A stretch of 64,000 bases of DNA, from assembly GCA_000004985.1 (NCBI GenBank), contig GG738926.1, one strand, 5' to 3'. Positions 5,301 through 18,905 of this stretch are shown here, piece after piece. Within the stretch, counting starts at the first letter, position 1, and each line of letters begins with the position of its first letter. A model generated the notes under the pieces. It did not search any database. It was not told the DNA's origin and saw only the letters and a program-made list of their open reading frames with translations. The position numbers and the translations under genes are program-made. The DNA is from Naegleria gruberi. Taxonomy: Eukaryota.

Positions 5301-8300
5301 TGGTGAGTGGCCTGCAATTAACCTGAGTCGTCCACTCGATCATGGCAATGCAAGAGAGGGAGCTAGAAATACCCAAACATCATCTAATAAGAAGGGTCAA
5401 GTTGAATTTGTTGACTATAGAAATAGATTTAAATCATTGAGATTATTTTTAATTGAATTCTTCCAAGCCAGTAAGAATTATCAATTAGAAGCAGAAAGAA
5501 CACCACTCATTTACAATTTAGTCAAAATCAGCTACAAATGCCTAATTTACCGTATTTTTAATCCATATGGCAACGATAGCGATTCACTCCAATTAAAGGC
5601 TAAGCTGGAACCAACTAATGCACCAATGTCTAACTCTGAAAGCTTTAAACTAATTGTAGAAGGTCAGGATGAGTACTTGTACTCCATGAAGGAAATGGAA
5701 GAATTCTTTAGTGCTTTATTGAAGACTCTTGATTCAACCAATGATAAGGGTGATAGAGCTACCATGTTTGATGACATTGAACAAAATTTAAATACCATGA
5801 AGATTAAGAAGAAGATTCTTGATATTTTCCTCTATGCTATGGATTTAAGAATTGACTATAGAATTTCTCTTATTATTACTGCCTACAATGCAAGAAACAA
5901 GATACTTATCACAGAAAATCAATTGAATGAATTCATCAAGAAAACAATTTATCAACCTGTTAACTTTTTCCAATTTGATAATGACAGCAGTGGCTCATAC
6001 AAGAACTTTGCATTCCCACTTTTAATTTTATTTAAATATCAAAATAGAGAAATTCCAGAAACAGCTTTGAAACTTTTGCAAAGATCTTTCAATCAAGCTA
6101 AGGAATTGAAAGAAAATTTACAAAAGGTTTCAATTTTAATTTCACAAAAATCAAGAAAGGCTTATCAATTGATTTATGCACTCTTTAATAGAATTCAAGT
6201 TCTTGTTTCTACAAGTACCTTCACCGGAGGTGATACATCTCCTGATTTTACCCTATTCAAAGACACTTGCTCTCAGTTAGGAAAATTAATGAAGGAAATT
6301 AAGGGTACGAAATCAGCATTCCGTAATCTTGGAGGCCATGAGCTTATCCTAAAGTGTTTGAGTACTTCATATCCTCAATACATCAAGGATAGGTTGAGTT
6401 TGTGCTGTATTGAATTGTTGACCGAGTTTGTAAGAGGGGACCAGAAGAATCAATTGGAACTCTTTAGAGAATTCAGATTCTTATTGGAAATCATGTCAAA
6501 TCAACTGGATACAACCGAGTTGTTGACAGAAATAGTACGTGAAAATGATCAAATCTTACTTTCAATGATCGACCCATTACTGATTAAATTATACTTGGAA
6601 AAAATAATATCAGTAGGTGCCAAGTCCTATCATTTAAACTTTTTACGTATCTTGACATGTGACTCTATGGGACATTCAATTCCTGCCAATCAAAACGAAA
6701 TTATTAATAATTTGAAAGAAGATTACCGTTCAATGATTGTTCTCTATAATGAAGAAGACTCAATGAAGGAACGTGAACGAATGATCAAAAATAATGACCA
6801 TCTTATTATTGGATCTGATTTGAATTACCATATTAACCTTTTATATTTGTTGAGAGATTGTACTCGTGACAAGGTTGGTCTTGCTGAAGGATCTGTACAG
6901 GCTATTTTACCATTCTCTGAGATGTTGTCTCATTTGACTGACTGTTATCTTATTCCTCCAGTTAGAGATCCAATGATGAAACTTTTGACAGAGTTGTACT
7001 TTATTACTGAAAAAGAGTCCACTCAAGATTTGTCTGATGTTAAAATTTGGAAACTTTTCCAAAAAATCAATGTTGAAATATCAACTTGGCTTCAAAATGA
7101 TGGTTGTATGAGATATCCAAAGGAATTTGAAGATGCATACTATTCTAAATATCCAGGAACAGAGATTCGAACTGTTTCAACTAATAACACAAATCAATCA
7201 AATTCTGATGAAACTAACAGTGAGGAGGTATTCAAGCGTGCATTCTTCAATGGATCTGATGAAGAAATATTTGTCAATGATATTTACATTTTCAAAGTTT
7301 TACTTCCTTTCATTGAAAGCTTCTTTGAAATGGTTTTCAATAAGGATGTTAAAAAAATGTTGTTGCAAAAGGAAAATAAGGAAGAAATCAAGACCATTAT
7401 TTATGATTTATTGAATAATATCACCCAAATTTACCTACATTGCTCATCCCATCGTGAAGATGTCAAGAGATGCCACATGTCCATTCAAAAGATTATGATA
7501 ACATCCGACATTGATGTGGACAGCAAATTCAAGCAACTTACCAAATTGGCTTTGGCTAAATCATCTACTGCCATGATGATCAAACAAGAATCTAATAAGG
7601 TTATGAAGCAAAAATATGCTGTTAAGAATATTGAAGAAGATTTCTTGCTCAAATACAAGAATTTCCTTGAAGAACTTGAAAAGAAAGGATTCTTCAAAGA
7701 GAAGGAACAATCTGATTTACCAAAGTTTGCTCAATTGCTGCAATCACATATTGAAGAATACTTACCAAGACTTGTTATGGTTCTTAAAATAATGATTGAA
7801 AATGGCGTCACAAGAGAAATGCAAGAAACATTCTTGGATTCAATTTCTACAATTGGTGCCATAGTACAACAGTACAATGCCAAGGAGGATTATAACTTCT
7901 CTGTACAACATTCCATTCCTGAATTGGTTCTCTTTTTGATTTGTTCAAGCAATAATGTATTTTCCAAACATGGTTTGGAGTTGGGAATTTCAACACTTGA
8001 TGGTGGTAATATTGAAAATCAACAACTTTATAATCGTCTCTTGAGAAGTGGAAATTATGAAAATTTCTTTGTGTCTATCAAGAACAAGATTAAACAATCC
8101 ATCTTGGAAGAAAAAGAAATGAGGAAGAGAGGAGCAACAAAATTGACAACCGAGTTGACATCCTATGCATGGGAGGTTTTAAGATTCTTACAATTGTTGT
8201 GTGAAGGTCACAACTTGGAGAATCAGCAAATGTTGCAAGATCAATCATCATTCAACAGAATGAGTATTGATCTTGTCAGTGAGTGCATAGAATATGTGAT

Positions 8301-10665
8301 CCACTTGTTCAAATATCTCAGTGCTTCCAACATTGACAAGGTTATTCAGGCCTTCAACTCTTTGAATGAATTTGTTCAGGGTCCTTGTGAACAGTCAATC
8401 CGTACTCTTTCATACTCATCAGGTTTATTTACAGTATTTAATGACATTGTTGAAAATGATATCATGATTGACAAGTCTTTACAAACTGAACCAACTGGAG
8501 CTTCTTTTGCAATGCATCAGTCACGTTCCACTTTCCTTCTCAAACATCAATCTATGGCTAATCAAAATGCTAATCTGAAAGCTGTAGAATTGGTGGATCA
8601 CATTACACTTAAGAAGGAAATGAACTTGTTAAAGACAGCCATTATCACACTTACAAGTATGTTGGAAGGAGGAAATAGATTGGCCAAGAGAATGGAAAGA
8701 AAATATCTCAACATCGAGCCTCTTATCGAACGTATGGAACAATGTGCTGATATGTGTATGCAAATGTCGTTCATTCAAAGTTTGATCATCAAAAGAAGAG
8801 AATTTAAAAAGTTTTCATCTGGAATTTTTGAACAATTCAGAGCTAACAAATCAAATATGGATCAAATGTTGTCATCAAAACTCAGCAAAGATTTTGGACA
8901 ACTACCAATAGAAAAGAAGCTCAAGTACTCAAATGATGTCAACCAGTATATCAGCAGGATGAAAGAATATGTTATTGAAGAATGTGAAGAGATAGGAACT
9001 AGTATTTACATACTTCTTAAATATTTAAATATTGAGATGGCAGATAGTTTTGAAGATGAGGACAGTGTTAGAAGAACTATAGTTTATCAATATTATCAAA
9101 GCTTGACAGGAAGTATCGAAATTATCCGTGATTCTAATATTGAAATTGTTAACTTTAAAAAGCCACACATGTGTCATAATTTATTGGAACAAACGAAGGA
9201 TGAGTTTGTACAACAATGTAATCGTGAAACAGCACAAACCAAAGTTGCAGATCTCTATGAATGGACCTATACTGTATTCTATACTGAAATGTTGCATTTA
9301 GAAAGGTATAGACAGAATGCAAATGGTTGGGAATCAAAAACTTGGAGATTTTTGGAAAATTACTGGAAGTATATGAAGAATTTATCCTTCCTTTTCTCTC
9401 TTTGTATTAATATTATTGTGCTCATATCTTTCCACAAGAAGTATGATGTATTCTCTGGAAATCTACCTATTCCTGGACAAAGTTATGGAGATAAAGGAAT
9501 TGATGGCATGATTATTACCCAAGGATTCAAGTGGTGGGGTGTTGGTATATTGGTTATTGTGTTAGGTATAATTCAGCTCATCACAACTCTATTACTGATA
9601 TTAATTTATTTGAGATTCTTCCTATTATTGAATGTGAAAAAGAAATTTGAACTAAAGAAAGGAGAAACATGGGAAGATGCTAAAACGAAGGATGACTTTA
9701 AGAAGAAGCTAATAATTAACATTCTCTCTGATAAGTACCTCTGGTGGTTGATTATTTACTTCTTGATTTCACTGATTGGTCTGTTTGTTACTCCACTGGT
9801 TTATTGTCTCCAGTTGTTTGAAGTAGTTACTTTGAGCCATGTTTTGCAAGATATTGTATTTTCAATTTTTGAAAACAGGAAGAAATTCTTCTTGTTCTCA
9901 ATCCTTACCATTTTCTCTCTGACTGCCTATGCTTTTACAGTATTTGCCTTCAAATGGGAGCAATGGATTATTGGCACAACGAATGCGTGTTCCAATACCA
10001 TACTGTGTTTTGCCACCACAATCAATTACAGTGTTAGAGCTGAAGCCTTCTTGGAAAATATTATGGACCCTCAACCGAATGACGTATTCAGATTCTTTAT
10101 GGATATTGTTTTCTACTTTATTGTAGTAGTTATTTTGTTGGATGTCTTGTTTGGTTTGATTTTGGACTCTTTCAGCGAACGTCGTGAAGCTCGTAACAAA
10201 TTGGAAAAGGAAAAGAAGGAGATTTGCTTTATTTGCCATAATGAAAAGAGTAGATTTGATATTCATGCCAATGAAGGTATCAACTTTGAAACTCACATTA
10301 TGAATGAGCATAACATGTGGAATTATGTCTATTTCCTCATTTACCTTTCCCAAAAACCACGTGATGAATATACTGGTACTGAGCAATATGTAGAATTGAA
10401 TGCAGCTAAATTATCATTCTTCCCAACCTTGAGAAGTAGAACTCTTGAATTGGTAGAAAGTGGATTATTGATGGAAGAAAAGTTACAACCTGACCATACA
10501 TCCTCCTCTGCTGATTCTGATGATGAGGATGAAAATGATTCTCATGACAACAGAGCAGATTTTGACATTTCTCAAACGCAATCAAAGAAGGGATCACTTA
10601 CAAAGATGAATGATGACTTTGAATCTATGATTAACAATAAGGATAGTTTGTTATTGTACATTTAA
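2332..10665 (+). CDS. iplA-like: Inositol 1,4,5-trisphosphate receptor-like Ca2+ release channel (IP3R/RyR family), single exon, 2777 aa
   Basis: Continuous 8.3-kb ORF. N-terminal ligand-binding/MIR-like region, long helical RIH-like central part, C-terminal multi-TM channel region followed by the family-specific CFICHNEKSRFD...FETHIMNEHNMWNYVYFLIYL motif (compare IP3R CFICGLERDKFD...EHNMWHYLCFIVL). Real ATG in aaaaaaATG context. Confidence 0.92.
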   Translation: MVIRTESSTSLSSVLHETSSTNGSVSNSTSSSASSSSFTNTSNTLRYGDIISLAIYFNPTIQSSQQQQQTISSSSFDKLNNSMMDILHDRNSTTTPSTPTSNSPFPSSPSAPTTTTTTTSLEQIVGFLSIKGLPGHTRCGLSVDESILKSFDNSLFMVCQGDTYTARKKFNKFQSHLQSLQNSNNNGAVNHVNSTNNLNASSYSFGSSFKNQQVNTNNKQQVMINNLNYQNQLNELKERMNREDQENTIEKERSWGKPILYGQRIQLYHIKSGMYLNVLRSNADLEKSSLKLSLSEGDRMCHFQFAPHFKFRTEGEPIRLTDKVIIMNEKTKHSVHISHYKYVRPIIVRDFDRYEVNASSHPGDNIWILRLYRSYLPMDQLFIKGGDTIRIVHRDLLGALYHPTPSIENTSATVVSTPTTSSDESCSLNLNGKYSSSSITTLFQIEGLDSSRGGIMYYATPCRFKHVSTGKYIAAKQVEVPDIEGNSGSLIGNSNNNTATTTGATNNTATSTNTVSAARSGWRNLRRRVKIKLKLVLTDNPRDEASVFYLYSSENSNQFTTSDPILGQSLLRIKHAQSNTWLRANDLSNKITFNNSNNNSNNLMELWFDLIQREKDVFSMEHVNNTFQINLIKEIYPILTNFDINSHYQRNDIDILLNALKLVIYLCTDSIQEDPLKREGSPHTEIQNHFKEMNIIDAIFTIIDLLDNNNNAIKMTSTPRDSSPMLRRSSMLTDNNETTVYSTRFNSILVQMCYRAIKQLAKQNIVNCTHVLNKYFTTMQDHLSRDVGGQEVSNALVEIIHNNMEVLEQIPSEKINHFFKLITTRQKKPLFVSFLSNLCRCGERPVTKNQKHLVMLLSEIDCRNVFYLPEYDDRDGKIYVYCNDVDSIESESQVAIDEGVTVIDETKKAERILLSELSSYNNQMFRILIEGLSLLSSLCVGRHLAGINYVSELLPLDLVMGVVENESYGIELRSAMCEILEYCFLDNTSTGEWPAINLSRPLDHGNAREGARNTQTSSNKKGQVEFVDYRNRFKSLRLFLIEFFQASKNYQLEAERTPLIYNLVKISYKCLIYRIFNPYGNDSDSLQLKAKLEPTNAPMSNSESFKLIVEGQDEYLYSMKEMEEFFSALLKTLDSTNDKGDRATMFDDIEQNLNTMKIKKKILDIFLYAMDLRIDYRISLIITAYNARNKILITENQLNEFIKKTIYQPVNFFQFDNDSSGSYKNFAFPLLILFKYQNREIPETALKLLQRSFNQAKELKENLQKVSILISQKSRKAYQLIYALFNRIQVLVSTSTFTGGDTSPDFTLFKDTCSQLGKLMKEIKGTKSAFRNLGGHELILKCLSTSYPQYIKDRLSLCCIELLTEFVRGDQKNQLELFREFRFLLEIMSNQLDTTELLTEIVRENDQILLSMIDPLLIKLYLEKIISVGAKSYHLNFLRILTCDSMGHSIPANQNEIINNLKEDYRSMIVLYNEEDSMKERERMIKNNDHLIIGSDLNYHINLLYLLRDCTRDKVGLAEGSVQAILPFSEMLSHLTDCYLIPPVRDPMMKLLTELYFITEKESTQDLSDVKIWKLFQKINVEISTWLQNDGCMRYPKEFEDAYYSKYPGTEIRTVSTNNTNQSNSDETNSEEVFKRAFFNGSDEEIFVNDIYIFKVLLPFIESFFEMVFNKDVKKMLLQKENKEEIKTIIYDLLNNITQIYLHCSSHREDVKRCHMSIQKIMITSDIDVDSKFKQLTKLALAKSSTAMMIKQESNKVMKQKYAVKNIEEDFLLKYKNFLEELEKKGFFKEKEQSDLPKFAQLLQSHIEEYLPRLVMVLKIMIENGVTREMQETFLDSISTIGAIVQQYNAKEDYNFSVQHSIPELVLFLICSSNNVFSKHGLELGISTLDGGNIENQQLYNRLLRSGNYENFFVSIKNKIKQSILEEKEMRKRGATKLTTELTSYAWEVLRFLQLLCEGHNLENQQMLQDQSSFNRMSIDLVSECIEYVIHLFKYLSASNIDKVIQAFNSLNEFVQGPCEQSIRTLSYSSGLFTVFNDIVENDIMIDKSLQTEPTGASFAMHQSRSTFLLKHQSMANQNANLKAVELVDHITLKKEMNLLKTAIITLTSMLEGGNRLAKRMERKYLNIEPLIERMEQCADMCMQMSFIQSLIIKRREFKKFSSGIFEQFRANKSNMDQMLSSKLSKDFGQLPIEKKLKYSNDVNQYISRMKEYVIEECEEIGTSIYILLKYLNIEMADSFEDEDSVRRTIVYQYYQSLTGSIEIIRDSNIEIVNFKKPHMCHNLLEQTKDEFVQQCNRETAQTKVADLYEWTYTVFYTEMLHLERYRQNANGWESKTWRFLENYWKYMKNLSFLFSLCINIIVLISFHKKYDVFSGNLPIPGQSYGDKGIDGMIITQGFKWWGVGILVIVLGIIQLITTLLLILIYLRFFLLLNVKKKFELKKGETWEDAKTKDDFKKKLIINILSDKYLWWLIIYFLISLIGLFVTPLVYCLQLFEVVTLSHVLQDIVFSIFENRKKFFLFSILTIFSLTAYAFTVFAFKWEQWIIGTTNACSNTILCFATTINYSVRAEAFLENIMDPQPNDVFRFFMDIVFYFIVVVILLDVLFGLILDSFSERREARNKLEKEKKEICFICHNEKSRFDIHANEGINFETHIMNEHNMWNYVYFLIYLSQKPRDEYTGTEQYVELNAAKLSFFPTLRSRTLELVESGLLMEEKLQPDHTSSSADSDDEDENDSHDNRADFDISQTQSKKGSLTKMNDDFESMINNKDSLLLYI

Positions 10666-10683: not shown

Positions 10684-11661
10684 TTATTTGCAAGAAAAAC
10701 AAGAACATGCTGGTATTATTTGGGAAGAACTGACACAATGGTCAATTTTGACAAGCGTGGAGGTGCTGATTTGTTCTGGAAAGTCAAATTGCACATTTCT
10801 CTTTACCCTCTTGTAAACAGCATTGGATTTAATAAACTCTTTGATATTTTGTGAATTACTAGTATTCATGTGATATTCAATTTTGATAAATTCAATGGCT
10901 TTCAGGTAGTTCTCTGTTGCATTATCGTAAGATTTATGACTGGTGCAAAATTCTCCAAAGAGTGAGAAAACTTCTTGTAAGTGTCTATAACATTGTATCT
11001 TGGAGGTGGTTGTGTCAAAATTGTCATTACTCAAAGCTTGTTTAAAGTAATTTATCGATTTTTCAAAAACGTGAGACTTGGTCAAAAGGGTTTTGGTTTC
11101 ACTAGCATTTTCGGAATTGATGTAAACTGTTTCTATATATCCAAACTCATCAATGTTTAATTTACTAAATATTGTAAATAAACAAACTCCAATAGTATCA
11201 CAAGTATGTGATTTAAATGATGTCGAGTCTCCTATTTCTATTAAATATTTAAATAAATCTATTAAATGTGTATAATTCACATAAATATCTTCCGAATCCA
11301 TTAGTGCTTGATCAATAGATACTATTCCGAACTTGTGATAAATATTCATAGTCCTATGCATAAAATCAAAATAAACATTCTTAAATTCCAACAATCTATT
11401 TAACACCTTCAACATTAAAACAATATTTTGATAATGCTCGGCTTGTTCAAATAAATTTAAAAGCTCCACTTCATTACATTCACTAATATCACCCAGTAAA
11501 CGACTCGATTTTTTCAATGATTTTCTTGGTGGTACAACCTGAGCCTTCGGAGGAGATGCTGTAATTTCCTTCACCTCCTGTTCTTCATCATCAGTTTTCT
11601 TCTTCAATTGTTTAATGCTGATCGGAGAAAAACTGGTCGAGGCTTCTTCATTGTTGTTCAT
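10684..11661 (-). CDS. hypothetical protein (325 aa), no recognisable domain
   Basis: Complete ORF with ATG in aaaaaaaATG context. Convergent with the IP3R gene, stop codons 18 bp apart. Confidence 0.55.
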   Translation of the reverse strand: MNNNEEASTSFSPISIKQLKKKTDDEEQEVKEITASPPKAQVVPPRKSLKKSSRLLGDISECNEVELLNLFEQAEHYQNIVLMLKVLNRLLEFKNVYFDFMHRTMNIYHKFGIVSIDQALMDSEDIYVNYTHLIDLFKYLIEIGDSTSFKSHTCDTIGVCLFTIFSKLNIDEFGYIETVYINSENASETKTLLTKSHVFEKSINYFKQALSNDNFDTTTSKIQCYRHLQEVFSLFGEFCTSHKSYDNATENYLKAIEFIKIEYHMNTSNSQNIKEFIKSNAVYKRVKRNVQFDFPEQISTSTLVKIDHCVSSSQIIPACSCFSCK

Positions 11662-11874: not shown

Positions 11875-13482
11875 TTATTGTGTTGATTTCTTCTTCTTTC
11901 TATTAAAACATGAACAGAATGGCCAATAGATAAATTCATAGACATCCAAAACTGATTTCATATTCAATAGATAGAGAGTAAGCAATAATAGGATCCATAT
12001 CAAAATGAGTTCTGATATGAATTCCAATGCCAAACTACCATCACCCATTGAAAAACTAGTTGACTCTGTGTTGAATTGAATATTCTCAACGGAAATCAAT
12101 ATGAGAAAGATGCACAAGACAATGAATGAAATTGTAATGAGCATTATAAATCTGGTAAATTTGAGAGATTTGAATGAATCAATCTTCTCCTGTGCATTCT
12201 TTGTTCTCGTCAAATCAAGGAATAATTTCATTCCAAATCCAAATATGGCCAAGCTCAAAACAATGAGGATTGTAATGAAGATGAGAAGAATGATACCAGT
12301 TCCCAACACTTCATTCAAACTAGAGGTGATAATATATGAAATTGCCACCGATAAGAAAAATCCCAATCCAACAAATAATAAAACTCTGAGTGGAATTAAG
12401 AGTTTTGGATCTGTGAGTTGTTTTCTCTTTTCACTGAATGCTAAATTGACCCACAGCAAGGTTACTACAAAGACACAAACAGTGATGAGGTAGTACACGA
12501 TGGCAATGATTAGTCTGGTTCTTTTAAAATCCTGAACTCCTAAAATTACTGCTCTAGCTATGGCATAGCCAATTATGGTGAGTGAAATCATAACTTTCAA
12601 AATTAAGGTAAAATGTTTTACAGAAAACCATGTAAATTCTGGATAAATATCAGAATCCTTTTCAATACCCATTGATCCCTCTTCACTGCCAGTCCACAAC
12701 GATCTAACATAGGTATTGAACTTGACAATTAAGTTTCTAATAACTTTGAATATTCTCAATTGAATAATAGAAGGAATAAGTGAAACTGTAATTGACACAA
12801 ATGCAACAATAAATGCCAAAATAACTACAATATAATGATAGGCATAAAAAGCTCGTTTCGAATGAATCAAATTACAATTAGTGGCCCACAAATTCTCCTC
12901 CTCGCAATAACACATAATAGTTGTGGTGTTTCCTCTATACGAATCTACAAAAGGACTACTTTTCGAATTGCCACACAATTGTGTTTGATCATAATCTGGA
13001 TTTTGAGCCATTATAATATCAATAGTTCTGTCCACTCCTCTACACTCTGAAACATTCCACATTTTCATTCGAAACTCATTACTCACCACATTACACAACA
13101 TGCAATATCTCTGAAAAACATAAGAAGGAAGGTCAAGACAAATTTCCTGACACGTTGTTTCGTTCCAATCGGGATGACCATTCCTTGCAGACTCACAAAA
13201 ATCATAAACTAAACTATCCATCACAACTTGTTGGTTATTTGGAAAGGGAACAATGTAGGAATCGGCTACAAGAATCTTGTTGAAACAAGGATAGGGAGTT
13301 GTGTTATTTTCACATGGCTCTTGGAAAATAAAGGGACTGTAATAGAGTGAATTATTATTGGCAGTTGAGTTGAGTGAAGTGTTGTAATAGAGTTGTTGTT
13401 CTTGTCCTAAACAATTATTAGAAACTGATGTGAATAAACAAAAAAGAAGGACAAGAAGAAGAATACCAAGGTTGTGAGACAT
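11875..13482 (-). CDS. 7TM receptor with N-terminal signal peptide and Cys-rich ectodomain (Frizzled/Smoothened-like, tentative), paralog A
   Basis: Signal peptide MSHNLGILLLVLLFCLFTSVS, about 190-aa ectodomain with at least 12 Cys (PCENNTTPYPCFNKI...), seven hydrophobic helices, short C tail. Strong paralogy to the next gene, including the identical NYCMLCNVVSNEFRMKMWNV block. Confidence 0.75.
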   Translation of the reverse strand: MSHNLGILLLVLLFCLFTSVSNNCLGQEQQLYYNTSLNSTANNNSLYYSPFIFQEPCENNTTPYPCFNKILVADSYIVPFPNNQQVVMDSLVYDFCESARNGHPDWNETTCQEICLDLPSYVFQRYCMLCNVVSNEFRMKMWNVSECRGVDRTIDIIMAQNPDYDQTQLCGNSKSSPFVDSYRGNTTTIMCYCEEENLWATNCNLIHSKRAFYAYHYIVVILAFIVAFVSITVSLIPSIIQLRIFKVIRNLIVKFNTYVRSLWTGSEEGSMGIEKDSDIYPEFTWFSVKHFTLILKVMISLTIIGYAIARAVILGVQDFKRTRLIIAIVYYLITVCVFVVTLLWVNLAFSEKRKQLTDPKLLIPLRVLLFVGLGFFLSVAISYIITSSLNEVLGTGIILLIFITILIVLSLAIFGFGMKLFLDLTRTKNAQEKIDSFKSLKFTRFIMLITISFIVLCIFLILISVENIQFNTESTSFSMGDGSLALEFISELILIWILLLLTLYLLNMKSVLDVYEFIYWPFCSCFNRKKKKSTQ

Positions 13483-14168
13483 TTTGTTTTTTCAGAGAAT
13501 TGACCACGTTCCATTGGTGGTCTATCCGTCTCAATTTGGTAATTGATTTGTGAACAGGAAACTCTGCAAAAACTGAGCAATTTGATAGGTGGAACAATCC
13601 ATACCCAACAGAAGAGAGAAGAATTTCTGTTTCATTGAAGCTGTTAATTGCTTGAGATTCATTGTTTATTCAATCTGCCTCCTAAATAGAGCATTGATTT
13701 AACTATATTTGTGAACATGAGAGTTGCTCTTTGTTTTGCAGTATCTGACACTTGAGATATGAACGGATCATTTATTAAGGAAGAAAAACTAATACAGAAA
13801 TTAAGAGTGAAAAAAAATGAATCAACAACCCTCAACTCCACAAAGCCAAACAAAACAGCAAATGTTCTTGTCCACCCTTAATCCAACGGAATATTTAGAT
13901 CAAATGTTGGTGACTGCTCACTTGAAGAATGCTATTACACAGAGTAGGTTTCCTAATATTTTCCGAGGTATTTAAAATTATAAAATAGTATTGGAAATGA
14001 GACCCGATGATCCACTAGAATTTATGGCGGAATAGTAAGTGGTTTTTTGTGAGAGTAATTAGTATTTACATATTCTATATCTGACCATAGTTTTAGTGAA
14101 GCTGCAAAGGAAAAGAAGAAAGTTTAATTGATGCAATCCAAATAGTACCTGTTTGAAGAGTATTAATG

Positions 14169-15734
14169 TTAGTTACTCGCTACTTGTTGAGGTGTTTTCT
14201 TCTTTTTGAATAGACCTACAATAGGCCAATAGAGAAACTCATAGGTATCCATAGCAGAGTTATGATTATACAAGTAGAAAGTTATCAAAGTAAGCATCCA
14301 AATCATAACGAGTTCAATAACAAATTCTATTGCCAATCCCAAATCGCCTCGAATAAAATTCACACCAAAGTTTTCTAATGAAAATATTATCAATAGTACA
14401 CACAAAATGATAAATGACGTGGTAATGAGAACTATGAATCGTGTAAATTTCATTGAAACAAAGGAGTCAATGTTATCCTTTTTGACTCTTGTAACTTTGT
14501 AATAGAGAGTAAAACCTGCAATAATAATAGCCAATCCTAACACTATTAAAATAGACATGAAAACTAGCAAAATTGTTCCTGATCCAATATTCAATGCCAG
14601 TATTCTTGTAATGACATAAGCAGCTAAGACTAGAAACATGAAAATTAATCCCACAATATAAATCACTCTGAGAGGAATCAACAATTGATCTTCTGTTTTT
14701 TTCTTTAACTCTTTAACCATCAAATTAATCCATAAAATGCAAATTGTAAATGTACTAATTGTAATCAGGAAAAAGACTATTGCTAAAATTATTTTGTAAT
14801 TGCTGAAATCTTCCACTATGAATAAAGCTATTCTAGATGCAAAGTATCCAAAGGCAGTACATGGAATAAGTAGATTTAACATGAATATGAAATGCTTGAG
14901 AGAAAATGCTTGCTTGGGCAGGAAAATTTCAGAATCACTTAAAACCAATCTCTCGTCTCCCTTAAAGGCAACCCTAACTAAATTATTGAGTTTTTGATTT
15001 AAAACTCTCACCTTTTTGAATAGTCTCGACTGAATTAGGGTTGGCAAGAGAAGCACAGAAAAAGAGAACACAGAAATGAGGAATGATAGAATAATAATAA
15101 TGTAGTGATAGGAGAAATAAGCAAGCTTTGTGGAGAGGTAGCCACAATTGGATGCCCAATAATCCCCCTCCTCACAATAACAAATAGTAACTGTTTGTTG
15201 AATTAGATAGAGAAGTAAAAGAGAACTTTTCGAACTGCCACAAATTTGGGTTTGATCGTAATCTGATGATTTTGTCATGGCCATATCAATTCTTCGGTCA
15301 GGAGCTGGACACTCAGTAACATTCCACATCTTCATCCTAAATTCATTACTCACTACATTACACAACATGCAATAGTTTTGGAATGTTGGATTTGATGATT
15401 TAGTACAAAGCTCTGTGTAGCATTTTGTTGCATTCCAATTATTTCGTGTGGCATAATAGTGGCAAATATCAAATCCTCTTGGTCCAAACGAAACAAGTTT
15501 TTCATTTGGGAACAAAATAAAGCTTGAAAAGATGGTTATCTTGTTAAAACAAGGATAGGGTGTAGTGTTGTTTTCACACGGTTCCAAGAAAGCATTGGGA
15601 CTGTAGTAGAGAGGTTTGTTGTTTGCGGTTGTGTTGAGTGAAGTGTAATAGTAATAATTTTGTGATGATTGTACATTTGACATTAAAAGCAGTAAGAAGG
15701 CAACCACAACAATCATAACAAAGCAATTGAACAT
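14169..15734 (-). CDS. 7TM receptor with Cys-rich ectodomain, paralog B (tandem duplicate of 11875..13482)
   Basis: ORF 14169..15761 begins with a TTG in the track; the real ATG (MFNCFVMIVVVAFLLLL signal peptide) is at 15734. Same architecture and conserved blocks (EPCENNTTPYPCFNKI, NYCMLCNVVSNEFRMKMWNV) as paralog A. Confidence 0.75.
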   Translation of the reverse strand: MFNCFVMIVVVAFLLLLMSNVQSSQNYYYYTSLNTTANNKPLYYSPNAFLEPCENNTTPYPCFNKITIFSSFILFPNEKLVSFGPRGFDICHYYATRNNWNATKCYTELCTKSSNPTFQNYCMLCNVVSNEFRMKMWNVTECPAPDRRIDMAMTKSSDYDQTQICGSSKSSLLLLYLIQQTVTICYCEEGDYWASNCGYLSTKLAYFSYHYIIIILSFLISVFSFSVLLLPTLIQSRLFKKVRVLNQKLNNLVRVAFKGDERLVLSDSEIFLPKQAFSLKHFIFMLNLLIPCTAFGYFASRIALFIVEDFSNYKIILAIVFFLITISTFTICILWINLMVKELKKKTEDQLLIPLRVIYIVGLIFMFLVLAAYVITRILALNIGSGTILLVFMSILIVLGLAIIIAGFTLYYKVTRVKKDNIDSFVSMKFTRFIVLITTSFIILCVLLIIFSLENFGVNFIRGDLGLAIEFVIELVMIWMLTLITFYLYNHNSAMDTYEFLYWPIVGLFKKKKTPQQVASN

Positions 15735-15977
15735 GTTTTTTGATTTGTGAAAGCGTAACAATCATACACTCATATTATGAGCCCTTCTGTTGAAACGTTT
15801 TGCAGATCTACAAACAATTGTTTTGCCTTACCATAAATAGAAGGAACACTCAGAGATGTAACAGAGATGTAATATTACCTCTCTGAGAGGCATTTCCTTG
15901 AGTTCTTTAACAAGATGGGCTCTGATGAATATTAACCAAGTTGTCTGTTTTATCAATTACTGACTATCAATTGATAA

Positions 15978-16790
15978 TTACTTTTGTTTAAAAGACTCCC
16001 TTATTGTCTTCTCCATCTCTTTTAATCCTAGAGTAACACAAGTTGAGTTTTGGGAGCGAACTTCATCTACACAATCAAAGAGTAAGCCTACTTTTTCATT
16101 CTCTAAAAGGTTTCTATTCACTTTCTCTGCGCAGTCAGCTACTTTTCTCTGGCAAGAAATCATCAATGCCTTATAGAAATATTCCTGTGAAGAGGCTAAA
16201 CAAAACTCATTTGACATTGATATCAGATCTTGGTCCTTGTTTGCTCTAGGTTTAGATTCTAAACAGTTTAACAATCTCTTCTTCACATCAGGAATAGAGA
16301 TACCCAACATGGTTTCCAACTCTTCCTGATTGTTCACATCTTGGTAAGATCCCTTATTGGCTGCTTTCCATTCCCTCATACGATTAGAAAATTGTGGCAT
16401 AAAATCTCTGAACCTACTGCCTCTCACATTTCTAACAAAATTCTCATTTGTCCGTGTAGTTCCATCCAATATTGAGGAATCACTTTCAAAGCAATTATCA
16501 ATTTTAGCTAAAGTACTATCAATTTCATCATTTTGTACATTGAAAGAATTTCCCTGAATCAAGTTTATGTTTGTTAAACAATTTTCCTTTTCTTTTTGTC
16601 TTTCCGCTTCCATCAAGAATAAACAAGACCAATTAAATTTCATCTTGAATTCATAAGGTAAATTCTTAATACCATCATGTTTTTCCATCATTAATTTACA
16701 CTTGTTGTGATCTCCGAGTGCTCGAAGAAAGTTTCTCGTCTGAGCAATCTCAGCCTTGTACTGTTTATCGTTTTCCTTTGGTATCGACAT
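15978..16790 (-). CDS. hypothetical protein (about 270 aa)
   Basis: ORF 15978..16835 has a GTG start in the track; the first real ATG (MSIPKENDKQ) is at 16790 after ttttaaaaaaATG. Confidence 0.5.
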   Translation of the reverse strand: MSIPKENDKQYKAEIAQTRNFLRALGDHNKCKLMMEKHDGIKNLPYEFKMKFNWSCLFLMEAERQKEKENCLTNINLIQGNSFNVQNDEIDSTLAKIDNCFESDSSILDGTTRTNENFVRNVRGSRFRDFMPQFSNRMREWKAANKGSYQDVNNQEELETMLGISIPDVKKRLLNCLESKPRANKDQDLISMSNEFCLASSQEYFYKALMISCQRKVADCAEKVNRNLLENEKVGLLFDCVDEVRSQNSTCVTLGLKEMEKTIRESFKQK

Positions 16791-16973
16791 TTTTTTAAAA
16801 TTGCTTGTTCCGAAATTATATTCCTCTTCATACACATACTAGACTATTAGAAAATACAAAGAAATAAATTATAGAGAGGAACTAATTTTCAAAGCCTATG
16901 CTAAACATCAAGCCATTCTTCATCTTCACAAGCAAATCATCATTATATTTTTTAAAAATAAAAATTTAAAAAA

Positions 16974-17318
16974 ATGTTGAACAGACTTGCCCGTGCCTCT
17001 CGTGGTATTCATCATCAAATTTCCACTCCTCTCATCATCAACCAAACTAGATTCTACAGTAACTCTCCATCCTATCCAAAGAATGTCATTGAACAAAAGG
17101 TCATCGAAATTCTTACTAAACACGATAATATAAAAACAACACCAACAGGTACTTCTCATTTAGTGAAAGATTTAGGTTTGGATTCTTTGGACTCTGCTGA
17201 AATTATTCATGAAGTTGAAAATGAATTTGTTCTTGAAATTAATGATGACGTTGCTTTCCAACTTCAATCTGTCCCACAAATTGTTGAATTCGTATACAAG
17301 GAAACTCATCATCATTAA
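16974..17318 (+). CDS. mitochondrial acyl carrier protein (NDUFAB1-type ACP)
   Basis: N-terminal presequence MLNRLARASRGIHH..., phosphopantetheine-attachment motif DLGLDSLDSAEIIHEVENEF, 114 aa. Confidence 0.9.
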   Translation: MLNRLARASRGIHHQISTPLIINQTRFYSNSPSYPKNVIEQKVIEILTKHDNIKTTPTGTSHLVKDLGLDSLDSAEIIHEVENEFVLEINDDVAFQLQSVPQIVEFVYKETHHH

Positions 17319-17420: not shown

Positions 17421-18905
17421 CTATTCATCTTGTCTTATGCTAGCAATAGTCTTTTCAAATTCATCTTGCTCTCTTTGCTTTTTCTTTCTCATTTCGGTCT
17501 TGTACTTTCTTGCTCTGGATATATATTGTTCTCTACTGATTCTATCTGCTTGATGAGGGTTTGCAAAGATTCTGGCTATTGTCATTCCTGTTTGCAGTGG
17601 GATGTCTTTCATTAATTCATTACTCAACAGATTAATCTGTTTTGCATCATAGGTTACTCTTTCCTCTTGGCTCATAATCTTTTCCTTTTGTATTTTCTCT
17701 TCATTTAAAAAGTATGTCACTAAACCATCTCTAAGCTCAGCATCCCTGGCAGAAGAGATTTCCTCGTTTTGTTGAGATTGTGGTAAACTCTCTGCAGTTC
17801 CTCTGACTGTGTGTTGATCCTCTGGCAGTGATTTAAGGTATTCGTATTGTTCATAGCTCTTATTAAGATAGGATAAATCAACATTTCTTCTCCTTATTTC
17901 TCCTTTCAATCTTGCCATTTTCAATTTTTCCAAGTCAGGAAGAACTGGTTCAACGTAGTTCTTCCTTTCCTCCAGTGCATCTTTAACATACTCACTCGGT
18001 CTTAGCATATGTACGATATGTTTGTTATGAGAGTTGAGTGATGGATCAATGAATCTAAAGTCATTTTCTCTTCTTTCGTACGAGATGGATAACGTCTCCA
18101 GATCAATATTATTGTCTATATCATCAAATCCAAGTAATCTGAGAGTTGTCAAATACTCTCTTTTAATATGTGTCTCTCCTTGAGTTTTTCTCTTTGGAGC
18201 TCTTAAATAAAGTGGTCTCGTGTAAGGGTCATCAAAGTTGTTAGGTTCTGGTGAATGTGAATAAAGGAAATTTGTCCTCTGATTCAGAAAATGCTGATAG
18301 TCCTTGTCATTTTCGTCATCATCAAATGTAATGTACACTCTCTCGTTAAATTGAACTGATTTCCTTTCCTTTCCCCTGCTTTCGTCCGAGAGTGGTTCCT
18401 TAAGTATTGTTTTGTTACCTCTTTTTTGTTGTCCAAACTTTAGAGGAGAAAGTCTGTTCCCCCTTGAAGTTGGAGAATCAACAGAGTATTTGGAAGGTGA
18501 ATTATTAAATAAGGGACTTCTGGGATATTTTGGTGTAGCAACTTTTTTGAATACAGTCTTCTTTAGACCAGGATTCTTCTCGATGGTTATTGTTATGTTT
18601 TTCCTTGCATAAGGATTTCTATATACATATGTATCCTCATCCTTAGGAACATCAATTTTCAATTCCTTTGGAATTTTTGGTGGAGGTTGATGCTGCTCGG
18701 TAGAGGAATTTGTTGGATCAATGTTGACATTAAGAAACATCGACTTCCTTGGAGTCAATGTATCCCTTTTGGGTTCATCAAACATCCAATTTCTCTTCGT
18801 TGCTGTGCTGGAGTGGGCCAATCTCGGTGCAGTCTTTAAATCTGAATCTGCTGTTGAAGCCCTGGCCTGGCTTGTTTTTAAATATGGTCTTCTCTTACTG
18901 GTCAT
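17421..18905 (-). CDS. hypothetical basic low-complexity protein (494 aa)
   Basis: Complete ORF with real ATG, K/R/P/S-rich. No recognisable domain. Confidence 0.5.
   Translation of the reverse strand: MTSKRRPYLKTSQARASTADSDLKTAPRLAHSSTATKRNWMFDEPKRDTLTPRKSMFLNVNIDPTNSSTEQHQPPPKIPKELKIDVPKDEDTYVYRNPYARKNITITIEKNPGLKKTVFKKVATPKYPRSPLFNNSPSKYSVDSPTSRGNRLSPLKFGQQKRGNKTILKEPLSDESRGKERKSVQFNERVYITFDDDENDKDYQHFLNQRTNFLYSHSPEPNNFDDPYTRPLYLRAPKRKTQGETHIKREYLTTLRLLGFDDIDNNIDLETLSISYERRENDFRFIDPSLNSHNKHIVHMLRPSEYVKDALEERKNYVEPVLPDLEKLKMARLKGEIRRRNVDLSYLNKSYEQYEYLKSLPEDQHTVRGTAESLPQSQQNEEISSARDAELRDGLVTYFLNEEKIQKEKIMSQEERVTYDAKQINLLSNELMKDIPLQTGMTIARIFANPHQADRISREQYISRARKYKTEMRKKKQREQDEFEKTIASIRQDE

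What the first reader, a model, noticed from the sequence alone, without database searches (positions are those of the whole stretch)
11875..15734. Tandem pair of 7TM receptors with Cys-rich ectodomains, with patches of near-identical DNA suggesting gene conversion
The two head-to-tail minus-strand genes share architecture (signal peptide, about 12-14 Cys ectodomain, 7 TM helices, short tail) at roughly 40-45% overall identity. They retain a 20-aa identical block (NYCMLCNVVSNEFRMKMWNV) whose coding DNA is also almost identical (13060-13100 versus 15330-15380), and a second block EPCENNTTPYPCFNKI. The C-x8-C-P start of the ectodomain resembles a Frizzled CRD, which would make these Frizzled/Smoothened-like receptors. 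No KTxxxW motif is present after TM7, so the family call is tentative.
Basis: partly seen in the sequence, partly recalled or inferred. Interest (0 to 1): 0.5.

Follow-up and report, generated by a model that had tools for sequence, protein, structure and literature searches.

The report
Orphan Naegleria seven-helix receptor gene pair
Two neighbouring genes of the amoeba Naegleria gruberi encode old, diverged copies of an uncharacterised seven-helix membrane protein with a cysteine-rich outer domain, found only in Naegleria and its relatives; it is not a Frizzled receptor, and the "near-identical DNA" patches are mostly what conserved protein sequence alone would give.

Summary
The two minus-strand genes are real: 11875-13482 (535 aa) and 14169-15734 (521 aa). 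They are NAEGRDRAFT_75571 and NAEGRDRAFT_75572 of Naegleria gruberi, not a dictyostelid. They share 49% identity. Each has a signal peptide, a glycosylated ectodomain with 12 conserved Cys, seven TM helices and a short basic tail.

The identical block is 19 aa with 52/57 identical bases, against 47.9±2.3 expected from conserved residues with random codons. Synonymous sites are saturated in the TM half. They are only moderately less diverged in the 5' half (dS about 1.5). Recent gene conversion is therefore excluded, and an ancient tract stays possible.

Across the family the cytoplasmic loops and tail are the most conserved parts. Gene A keeps them and gene B has lost them. The best reading is a lineage-specific GPCR-fold receptor family whose tandem duplicate diverged asymmetrically.

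The parts
11875..13482 (-). Gene A (NAEGRDRAFT_75571, XP_002669483). Single-exon CDS of 535 aa plus stop.
   Evidence: ORF. 100% identical over 100% of its length to the NCBI N. gruberi predicted protein.
14169..15734 (-). Gene B (NAEGRDRAFT_75572, XP_002669484). Single-exon CDS of 521 aa plus stop. It is the paralogue of A, lying upstream of A on the minus strand.
   Evidence: ORF. 49% identity to A, E 3e-155. Matches the 521-aa NCBI model.
13405..13482 (-). Gene A predicted signal peptide (aa 1-26).
   Evidence: Hydrophobic stretch at aa 1-26. Cleavage is inferred, not tested.
12868..13404 (-). Gene A ectodomain (aa 27-205). It has 12 family-aligned Cys and all 8 N-x-S/T sequons of the protein.
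   Evidence: Cys positions and sequons. Cys columns and covarying pairs.
11962..12867 (-). Gene A seven-helix domain (aa 206-507).
12667..12720 (-). Gene A first cytoplasmic loop motif FNTYVRSLWTGSEEGSMG (aa 255-272). The motif is conserved family-wide.
   Evidence: Alignments. ICL1 identity of A to the outgroups is 54%.
11908..11946 (-). Gene A tail motif DVYEFIYWPFCSC (aa 513-525). It is the most conserved element of the family. The CSC(C) is a possible palmitoylation site (inferred).
   Evidence: Alignment. C-tail identity of A to the outgroups is 66%. Tails listed.
15663..15734 (-). Gene B predicted signal peptide (aa 1-24).
   Evidence: Hydrophobic stretch at aa 1-25.
15138..15662 (-). 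Gene B ectodomain (aa 25-199). It has 12 Cys aligned with those of A and 5 sequons.
14265..15137 (-). Gene B seven-helix domain (aa 200-490).
   Evidence: Hydropathy. Alignment to A. K+R count is 22 inside versus 2 outside.
14937..14990 (-). Gene B degenerate counterpart of the ICL1 motif (LNNLVRVAFKGDERLVLS).
   Evidence: Alignments. ICL1 identity of B to the outgroups is only 27%, against 54% for A.
13051..13107 (-). Identical 19-aa block YCMLCNVVSNEFRMKMWNV, gene A copy.
   Evidence: 52/57 nt identical to 15318-15374. Expected 47.9±2.3 from the amino-acid identity alone.
15318..15374 (-). Identical 19-aa block, gene B copy.
13273..13320 (-). Identical 16-aa block EPCENNTTPYPCFNKI, gene A copy.
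   Evidence: 41/48 nt identical to 15537-15584. Expected 39.7±1.9.
15537..15584 (-). Identical 16-aa block, gene B copy.
12840..13107 (-). Stretch of gene A with the strongest excess of shared synonymous codons. The partner in gene B is 15110-15374. It is a candidate remnant of an ancient conversion tract, or a zone of synonymous constraint.
   Evidence: Maximum-scoring segment, permutation p=0.009. Ectodomain columns 122-217: 34 same codons versus 25.6±2.4 expected, p=0.0005.

Best explanation
**What it is.** The region holds two tandem paralogues of a small, unnamed protein family restricted to heterolobosean amoebae (Naegleria gruberi, N. lovaniensis, N. fowleri, Willaertia magna and a few metagenomic relatives).

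**Architecture.** Each protein is a type-I-oriented seven-helix glycoprotein.
- A cleaved signal peptide comes first.
- It is followed by an ectodomain of about 180 aa held by six disulfides and carrying several N-glycans.
- Then comes a 7TM bundle with a GPCR/rhodopsin-like arrangement.
- A short Lys-rich cytoplasmic tail ends the protein.

**Likely mechanism (inferred).** The ectodomain binds an extracellular cue. The 7TM bundle relays it to an intracellular partner through the first and second cytoplasmic loops and the D-x-YEF-x-YWP-x-CSC tail. These are the best conserved parts of the family. A heterotrimeric G protein is the obvious candidate partner in Naegleria.

**History.**
- The duplication arose in the N. 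gruberi lineage, after its split from the N. lovaniensis/N. fowleri lineage.
- It is old, because synonymous sites are saturated in the TM half.
- Gene A kept the ancestral cytoplasmic motifs.
- Gene B kept the shared ectodomain and TM5-7 but lost those motifs. This suggests the same input with altered or lost output.

**The DNA patches.** The patches of similar DNA are mainly a by-product of strong protein constraint on blocks rich in Met, Trp and two-codon residues. An ancient conversion of the 5' half may add a little.

**Confidence.** The figure of 0.55 is for the whole statement. The anatomy, family range and history are well supported (about 0.85). The receptor/signalling function is much less certain (about 0.45).
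For: **Shown**
- Gene structure and paralogy.
- Organism and gene identities.
- Topology:
  - signal-like N-terminus and 7 hydrophobic helices;
  - all sequons lie in the ectodomain, and K+R is 21-22 inside versus 2 outside.
- Disulfides: there are 12 aligned Cys columns. One pair is lost together (C57/C66 become S/S in N. lovaniensis and N. fowleri) and another pair is gained together.
- Family size and taxonomic range:
  - exhaustive HMMER over 1.84 billion representatives gives only 6 proteins, all at E<=1e-30;
  - the named ones are Naegleria or Willaertia.
- No Pfam or NCBIfam family matches, and no PDB sequence relative is found.
- Fold:
  - AF2 with the 7-sequence alignment gives pTM 0.54, with TM helices at pLDDT 70-87;
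  - the Foldseek top hits are also GPCRs, though at E>=0.03.
- Conservation by topological region. ICL1, ICL2 and the C-tail are the most conserved regions family-wide:

| Region | A vs outgroups | B vs outgroups |
|---|---|---|
| ICL1 | 54% | 27% |
| ICL2 | 45% | 26% |
| C-tail | 66% | 45% |

- B also lacks the CSC motif.
- A+B monophyly has 100% NJ bootstrap support in every region against N. lovaniensis, P0007 and Willaertia.
- Age of the duplication: pS is 0.80 in the TM half, which is saturated, and dS is about 1.5 in the ectodomain.
- Blocks: observed DNA identity is within expectation given the amino-acid identity.

**Background**
- N. fowleri has many G-alpha subunits, some of them exchange-limited, but only one recognisable GPCR candidate. 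Other orphan 7TM proteins are mentioned only as 'data not shown' (PMC9283941).

**Inferred**
- Ligand binding, coupling to a cytoplasmic partner, palmitoylation, and divergence of B's output.
Against: - The structural model is only moderately confident: mean pLDDT is 57 and the ectodomain is below 50. It was built from 7 sequences, and AlphaFold may default to a GPCR-like packing for any 7TM protein.
- No class A, B, C, F or cAR sequence signature is present.
- Nothing shows surface localisation, ligand binding or G-protein coupling.
- The first cytoplasmic loop is about 50 aa, which is unusual for GPCRs.
- The asymmetric loss of motifs in B could equally mean that B is decaying in function.
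Confidence: 0.55

Rival explanations
1. Frizzled/Smoothened-like (class F) receptors. On this reading the ectodomain is a Frizzled CRD and the 7TM domain is a class F bundle.
For: - The architecture is superficially similar: signal peptide, Cys-rich domain, 7TM, short tail.
- A C-x8-C spacing starts the ectodomain.
Against: - No PF01392, PF01534 or any other GPCR Pfam match at E<=10 in any of 7 members.
- There are 12 Cys rather than 10.
- The C-x8-C pair is Ser/Ser in N. lovaniensis and N. fowleri, so it is not a core feature.
- There is no KTxxxW motif.
- The exhaustive HMMER search finds no Frizzled relative.
Confidence: 0.03
2. A non-signalling seven-helix membrane protein. One example would be a GOST-like (GPR107/TMEM87-type) trafficking or cargo protein with a lumenal domain. 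Another would be a channel or transporter of the secretory or contractile-vacuole system.
For: - It has the same gross architecture as GOST proteins: signal peptide, a lumenal domain of about 180 aa with disulfides, 7TM and a short basic tail.
- The predicted ectodomain has mixed beta/alpha content.
- The GPCR-like fold hits are generic to 7TM bundles.
Against: - No Lung_7-TM_R or other GOST Pfam match.
- The strongest conservation lies in the cytoplasmic loops and tail, not in the membrane core. That fits partner binding better than transport.
- There is no canonical C-terminal KKxx motif.
- The ectodomain fold could not be evaluated because its pLDDT is below 50.
Confidence: 0.25
3. An ancient partial gene conversion (or unequal exchange) re-homogenised the 5' half of the two genes (ectodomain through about TM1-TM2) well after the original duplication. 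That half is therefore younger than the TM half. This concerns history, not function, so it is compatible with the best explanation.
For: - Same-codon counts at conserved degenerate residues are 60/94 in the ectodomain versus 47.1±4.3 expected (p=0.0016), and 59/142 versus 61.2 expected in the TM half.
- The excess lies in the 3-6-fold codons: 22/36 versus 12.1±2.7 expected, p<0.00025.
- Third-position identity at 4-fold sites is 16/24 in the ectodomain versus 12/44 in the TM half.
- A maximum-scoring segment spans 13107-12840 and 15374-15110, p=0.009.
- Only the ectodomain gives DNA-level repeats.
- dN is also lower there, 0.36 versus 0.48.
Against: - Even in the best segment dS is about 1.2, so any event is very old.
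- The single change-point is diffuse and only borderline (column 304, LRT 10, p=0.05).
- The upstream and downstream flanks share nothing beyond a 12-mer.
- TM5-7 has equally high protein identity (55-69%) with no synonymous signal. High identity here is therefore not tied to conversion in general.
- A+B are monophyletic in all regions, so there is no topological incongruence to exploit.
- Synonymous constraint or regional mutation-rate variation would give the same pattern from two sequences.
Confidence: 0.35
4. Recent gene conversion produced the near-identical DNA patches at 13051-13107/15318-15374 and 13273-13320/15537-15584.
For: - The blocks are 19-aa and 16-aa identical runs with 91% and 85% DNA identity.
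Against: - Observed identities of 52/57 and 41/48 compare with 47.9±2.3 and 39.7±1.9 expected from identical residues with randomly drawn codons (p=0.05 and 0.34).
- The Arg codon differs at two positions, CGA versus AGG.
- The longest perfect run is 20 nt.
- The block is also the best conserved ectodomain segment in other species (Y-C-x-x-C ... W-N-V). Protein constraint is therefore sufficient.
Confidence: 0.03

Closest known systems
Class A (rhodopsin-like) G-protein-coupled receptors, e.g. P2Y1 (7xxh), PAF receptor (8xyd)
   Same: - Seven helices with the N-terminus outside and the C-terminus inside.
- A short tail follows TM7, with a predicted helix and Cys residues. This resembles a palmitoylated helix 8 (inference).
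   Different: - Sequence identity is 8-12% and there is no 7tm_1 Pfam match.
- There is no DRY, NPxxY or CWxP motif.
- No Cys lies in the ECL1, ECL2 or ECL3 segments, so no TM3-ECL2 disulfide is possible.
- It has a large 12-Cys ectodomain and a 50-aa first cytoplasmic loop.
- The conserved motifs (FNTxIRxLWTGS, DxYEFxYWP) are unique to this family.
Frizzled/Smoothened (class F) receptors
   Same: - The domain order is the same: signal peptide, Cys-rich ectodomain, 7TM, short tail.
   Different: - There is no Fz CRD or Frizzled 7TM profile match.
- The Cys number and pattern differ.
- There is no KTxxxW motif.
- It is not preferred in the fold search.
Naegleria/plant 7TM-RGS proteins and the single cAR-like GPCR candidate of N. 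fowleri (PMC9283941)
   Same: - They occur in the same organisms.
- They are 7TM proteins, some with elaborate extracellular domains, proposed as inputs to the expanded Naegleria G-protein system.
   Different: - There is no RGS domain, because the tail is only 28 aa.
- There is no GPS motif.
- There is no Dicty_CAR match.
- The exhaustive HMMER search shows no detectable sequence relationship to them.
GOST family (GPR107/GPR108, TMEM87, GPR180: lumenal GOLD domain plus 7TM)
   Same: - It has a signal peptide, a disulfide-containing lumenal or extracellular domain of about 180 aa, 7TM and a short basic tail.
   Different: - There is no Lung_7-TM_R match.
- A GOLD fold could not be tested because the ectodomain model is unreliable.

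Membership tests
Frizzled/Smoothened (class F GPCR) | N-terminal Frizzled cysteine-rich domain (Pfam PF01392, 10 conserved Cys) | tested here: not met
   No Fz hit at E<=10 in either protein or in 5 relatives. The ectodomain has 12 aligned Cys. The first C-x8-C pair is Ser/Ser in N. lovaniensis and N. fowleri.
Frizzled/Smoothened (class F GPCR) | Frizzled-type 7TM domain (Pfam PF01534) | tested here: not met
Frizzled/Smoothened (class F GPCR) | KTxxxW motif after TM7 | tested here: not met
   The regex search finds none in A or B. The family tail motif is DxYEFxYWP.
Rhodopsin-like (class A) GPCR | 7tm_1 profile match and the D/E-R-Y, CWxP and NPxxY microswitch motifs | tested here: not met
   No Pfam hit. 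No such motifs are present.
GPCR fold superfamily (structural sense) | Seven-helix bundle, N-out/C-in, superposable on solved GPCRs | tested here: inconclusive
GPCR (functional sense) | Ligand-dependent activation of a heterotrimeric G protein | not testable with these tools
   This needs biochemical or cell-based assays.
Adhesion GPCR / GPS-containing 7TM-RGS proteins | GAIN/GPS motif (C-x-C-x-H-L-T/S) before TM1; an RGS domain after TM7 in the case of 7TM-RGS proteins | tested here: not met
   There is no GPS regex match and no GPS or RGS Pfam hit. The tail is 28 aa. The CYCE..W...C element before TM1 has a different order of residues from a GPS motif.
cAMP receptor family (Dicty_CAR, class E) | Dicty_CAR profile match | tested here: not met
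   No hit at E<=10.
GOST family (GPR107/TMEM87-like) | Lung_7-TM_R type 7TM profile | tested here: not met
   No Pfam hit.
GOST family (GPR107/TMEM87-like) | Lumenal GOLD-domain beta sandwich | tested here: inconclusive
   The ectodomain of the AF2 model has pLDDT below 50, so its fold cannot be compared.
Gene-conversion tract between tandem paralogues | A bounded stretch whose synonymous divergence is clearly lower than in the rest of the genes and lower than codon-usage expectation | tested here: inconclusive
   The 5' half shows a significant same-codon excess. However, dS there is still about 1.2-2.3, the boundary is diffuse (p=0.05), and the two named blocks are within expectation.

The most novel reading that the evidence does not exclude
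These genes belong to a previously undescribed, Heterolobosea-specific class of true G-protein-coupled receptors. The family is conserved in the brain-eating amoeba N. fowleri (FDP41_008946). It would supply the 'missing' receptors for the exchange-limited G-alpha subunits of Naegleria. In N. gruberi, the tandem copy B would have been rewired to a different cytoplasmic partner.
Probability: 0.2. Interest if true: 0.6.

Novelty: new variant of a known kind. Interest (0 to 1): 0.3.

Why it matters
Naegleria has a large G-protein toolkit but almost no recognisable receptors (PMC9283941). A conserved, lineage-restricted 7TM family with a GPCR-like predicted fold, a disulfide-rich glycosylated ectodomain and strongly conserved cytoplasmic motifs is a reasonable candidate input for that system. 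It has a single-copy orthologue in the pathogen N. fowleri.

The N. gruberi pair also gives a natural comparison. Both copies share the same ectodomain, but only one keeps the family's cytoplasmic motifs.

For the scan itself, the main value is corrective. The taxon and the Frizzled call were wrong. The apparent conversion patches are largely explained by amino-acid composition.

Tried and rejected
- **Pfam and NCBIfam scans** of both proteins and of all family members gave nothing. The only weak hits were chance-level ones to DUF7358 (E 0.2) and Mpo1-like (E 0.085). No paper mentions DUF7358.
- **The profile search against PDB sequences** gave nothing meaningful.
- **The word-indexed protein searches** were of limited use.
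  - With gene A alone, and then with the 7-sequence profile, they returned only the two window proteins. The second of these calls was effectively wasted.
  - The search with P0003 added only the N. fowleri cluster.
- **The first AF2 run**, with a 2-sequence alignment, was unusable at pLDDT 37.7.
- **The AFDB50 fold library** was not available.
- **Two metagenome scans**, using ectodomain patterns and then TM/loop patterns, found no further relatives. The 7-sequence alignment was too divergent to give patterns.
- **Synteny** gave no link to the window.
  - The N. lovaniensis, N. fowleri-like and one metagenomic locus share the order importin-5 / 7TM / GCN2-like kinase.
  - None of those neighbours is in this window, so positional orthology could not be used.
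- **A degeneracy artefact was considered.** Two-fold codons saturate more slowly and could have explained the synonymous excess in the ectodomain. I rejected this because the excess is in the 3-6-fold codons.
- **A GPS motif was considered** for the CYCE..W..C element before TM1. I rejected it because the residue order differs and no regex or Pfam hit supports it.
- **A literature search** for the gene identifiers found no paper.

Full report
**1. What is in the sequence**

The interval holds two intact ORFs on the minus strand, arranged head to tail.
- Gene A runs 11875-13482 and encodes 535 aa.
- Gene B runs 14169-15734 and encodes 521 aa from its first ATG.
- They are separated by 686 bp.
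- Both translate exactly to NCBI models of Naegleria gruberi: XP_002669483 (NAEGRDRAFT_75571) and XP_002669484 (NAEGRDRAFT_75572).
- The window is therefore heterolobosean, not dictyostelid. Its GC content of 30-40% fits.
- BLASTP gives 49% identity over 512 residues, E 3e-155.

**2. Architecture**

Each protein has a hydrophobic N-terminal signal (aa 1-26 in A, 1-24 in B), an ectodomain of about 180 aa, seven hydrophobic helices and a 28-aa Lys-rich tail.

Three observations support an N-out/C-in topology.
- All N-x-S/T sequons of A (8) and of B (5) lie in the ectodomain.
- Lys+Arg counts are 21-22 in the loops predicted to be cytoplasmic plus the tail.
- Only 2 Lys+Arg fall in the loops predicted to be external.

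The ectodomain has 12 Cys aligned across the family.
- The first two, C57 and C66 in A, are both Ser in N. lovaniensis and N. fowleri.
- Another pair (alignment columns 239 and 264) is present together in N. lovaniensis, N. fowleri and P0007 and absent in A and B.
- Paired loss and paired gain is what disulfide partners do, so I infer six disulfides.

**3. The blocks and the gene-conversion idea**

| Block | Gene A | Gene B | Identical nt | Expected* | p |
|---|---|---|---|---|---|
| YCMLCNVVSNEFRMKMWNV (19 aa) | 13051-13107 | 15318-15374 | 52/57 | 47.9±2.3 | 0.05 |
| EPCENNTTPYPCFNKI (16 aa) | 13273-13320 | 15537-15584 | 41/48 | 39.7±1.9 | 0.34 |

*The expectation keeps the amino acids and draws codons at random from each gene's own usage.

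- The long block is 19 aa, not 20.
- It contains three Met, one Trp and nine two-codon residues. Its Arg is coded CGA in one gene and AGG in the other.
- The longest perfect DNA run anywhere in the alignment is 20 nt.
- The blocks themselves are therefore no evidence for conversion.
- The 19-aa block is also the best conserved ectodomain segment in the other species (Y-C-x-x-C ... W-N-V). Protein constraint explains it.

Divergence is nevertheless not uniform along the genes.

| Measure | Ectodomain half | TM half |
|---|---|---|
| Nei-Gojobori pS | 0.65 (dS about 1.5; 1.2 in the 3' part) | 0.80 (saturated) |
| Same codon at conserved degenerate residues | 60/94 vs 47.1±4.3 expected, p=0.0016 | 59/142 vs 61.2 expected |
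| Same codon, 3-6-fold codons only | 22/36 vs 12.1±2.7 expected | 33/90 vs 32.4 expected |
| Third-position identity at 4-fold sites | 16/24 | 12/44 |

- The excess sits in the 3-6-fold codons, so it is not an artefact of slowly saturating two-fold sites.
- A maximum-scoring segment spans 13107-12840 and 15374-15110, p=0.009.
- A single change-point falls near alignment column 304 (A position 12579) but is only borderline, LRT 10 and p=0.05.
- The flanks share only a 12-mer.
- Only the ectodomain gives DNA-level repeats: 167 nt at 76% identity and 116 nt at 78%.

My reading is as follows.
- Recent conversion is excluded.
- An ancient conversion of the 5' half is possible, and I give it about 0.35.
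- With two sequences it cannot be separated from synonymous constraint or regional mutation-rate differences.
- TM5-7 is 55-69% identical at the protein level with no synonymous signal. High identity in these genes therefore does not generally require conversion.

**4. Family and relatives**

- Pfam and NCBIfam give no significant hit for either protein or for any relative, and nothing from the Frizzled, 7tm_1/2/3, Dicty_CAR, GPS, RGS or Lung_7-TM_R models.
- A profile against all PDB sequences gives nothing.
- An exhaustive HMMER search of 1.84 billion representatives finds six proteins, all at E<=1e-30, and nothing else at E<=0.001. They are:
  - the two window proteins;
  - N. lovaniensis XP_044549492 (P0003);
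  - Willaertia magna KAL9646890 (P0005);
  - a metagenomic protein (P0004, with cluster member P0007);
  - a metagenomic fragment (P0006).
- N. fowleri FDP41_008946 belongs to a cluster (representative P0008) that is 84% identical to the N. lovaniensis protein.
- This is a Heterolobosea-restricted orphan family.

**5. Fold**

- With the 7-sequence alignment, AlphaFold2 gives pTM 0.54 and mean pLDDT 57. TM helices reach 70-87 and the ectodomain is below 50.
- Foldseek also lists GPCRs first, but with E>=0.03.
- None of the class A microswitch motifs, KTxxxW or GPS is present.
- I conclude that a GPCR/rhodopsin-like 7TM bundle is likely but not secure, and that membership of any named GPCR class is not supported.

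**6. Where the family is constrained, and the asymmetry of the pair**

The most conserved regions family-wide are on the cytoplasmic side.
- The first cytoplasmic loop carries FNTxIRxLWTGSxEGxxG.
- The second carries LWxNxxxxxKxKxxxDxLLxPLR.
- The entry to TM6 carries SxxSLKFTKF.
- The tail carries DxYEFxYWPxCSC.

| Region | A vs outgroups | B vs outgroups |
|---|---|---|
| ICL1 | 54% | 27% |
| ICL2 | 45% | 26% |
| C-tail | 66% | 45% |

- Gene B has also lost the CSC motif.
- By contrast, A and B share an ectodomain (57-60% identical to each other, 29-35% to the outgroups) and TM5-7 (56-69%).
- Three-taxon branch arithmetic on the identities, done by hand, gives these branch lengths:
  - branch A is about 0.21 in every region;
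  - branch B is 0.20 in the ectodomain, 0.37 in TM1-TM4 and 0.23 in TM5 to the end.
- This is acceleration of B in the N-terminal half of the membrane domain.
- NJ bootstraps give A+B as a clade in 100% of replicates in every region against N. lovaniensis, P0007 and Willaertia. The metagenomic fragment P0006 is unresolved relative to the A/B split (A+B in 57-60% of replicates).
- The duplication is thus specific to the N. gruberi lineage, and it is old.

**7. Mechanism proposed (inferred)**

- A glycosylated, disulfide-knotted ectodomain senses an external cue.
- The 7TM bundle relays the signal to a conserved cytoplasmic partner through ICL1, ICL2 and the tail.
- The CSC(C) after a predicted short helix could be a palmitoyl anchor, as in GPCR helix 8.
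- The natural partner would be one of the many Naegleria G-alpha subunits. Some of these are exchange-limited and should need a receptor, yet only one GPCR candidate is recognisable in N. fowleri (PMC9283941).
- Gene B, with the same ectodomain but eroded cytoplasmic motifs, may act as a rewired or modulatory (decoy-like) copy, or it may be under relaxed constraint.
- The main rival is a non-signalling 7TM protein of the secretory pathway, GOST-like. This cannot be excluded because the ectodomain fold is unresolved.

**8. Context**

- In N. lovaniensis, in an N. fowleri-like contig and in one metagenomic contig the gene is single-copy. It is flanked by importin-5 and a GCN2-like kinase.
- Neither neighbour is in this window.
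- Here the pair sits between an IP3/ryanodine-receptor-like gene plus an unknown gene on one side, and an unknown gene plus an acyl-carrier protein on the other.
- The N. lovaniensis protein is closer to the Willaertia protein (47% in the TM part) than to gene A (37%).
- Either the N. gruberi copies moved and evolved fast, or they are a separate paralogous lineage. This is unresolved.

**9. Verdict**

- The Frizzled reading is not supported.
- The conversion reading is not supported for the patches and is inconclusive for the 5' half.
- What remains is an undescribed, lineage-restricted family of 7TM receptor-like proteins, with an asymmetrically diverged tandem pair in N. gruberi.
- It is of moderate interest, mainly to Naegleria signalling researchers.

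Noticed in passing
window 2332-10665 (+): A single 2777-aa ORF encodes an IP3-receptor/ryanodine-receptor-like channel. It matches the Ins145_P3_rec, MIR, RIH and RIH_assoc domains. It ends about 1.2 kb from gene A.
   Followed up: partly
window 16974-17318 (+): A 114-aa ORF has a phosphopantetheine-attachment (PP-binding) domain and the DSLD motif. It is probably a mitochondrial acyl carrier protein.
   Followed up: partly
window 13543-13554 (-) and 15740-15751 (-): The only similarity between the upstream flanks of the two genes is an exact 12-mer, TTCACAAATCAA. It lies about 61-72 nt before the ATG of gene A and 6-17 nt before the ATG of gene B (E 0.005 for that small comparison). It may be a shared promoter or initiator element, or it may be chance.
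   Followed up: no
L001 10001-11644, L003 9762-11522, L002 4089-5573: In N. lovaniensis, an N. fowleri-like contig and an unidentified metagenomic heterolobosean, the family member is single-copy. It lies in a conserved importin-5 / 7TM / GCN2-like kinase arrangement. The N. gruberi pair lies in a different neighbourhood. The N. lovaniensis protein is more similar to the Willaertia protein than to the N. gruberi proteins. Relocation with fast evolution versus a separate paralogous lineage is unresolved.
   Followed up: partly
L002 4089-5803; L001 9779-11644: The gene models of relatives look imperfect. The metagenomic model P0004 stops after TM6, and a 47-aa call follows it at 5660-5803, which may indicate an intron or a frameshift. 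The N. lovaniensis ORF is open 222 nt upstream of the annotated start. The N. fowleri models range from 518 to 588 aa. The Willaertia model lacks the N-terminal part of the ectodomain.
   Followed up: no
window 10684-11661 (-), 15978-16835 (-), 17421-18905 (-): Three flanking ORFs of 325, 285 and 494 aa have no Pfam match at E<=0.001. They are further uncharacterised Naegleria genes next to the pair.
   Followed up: no
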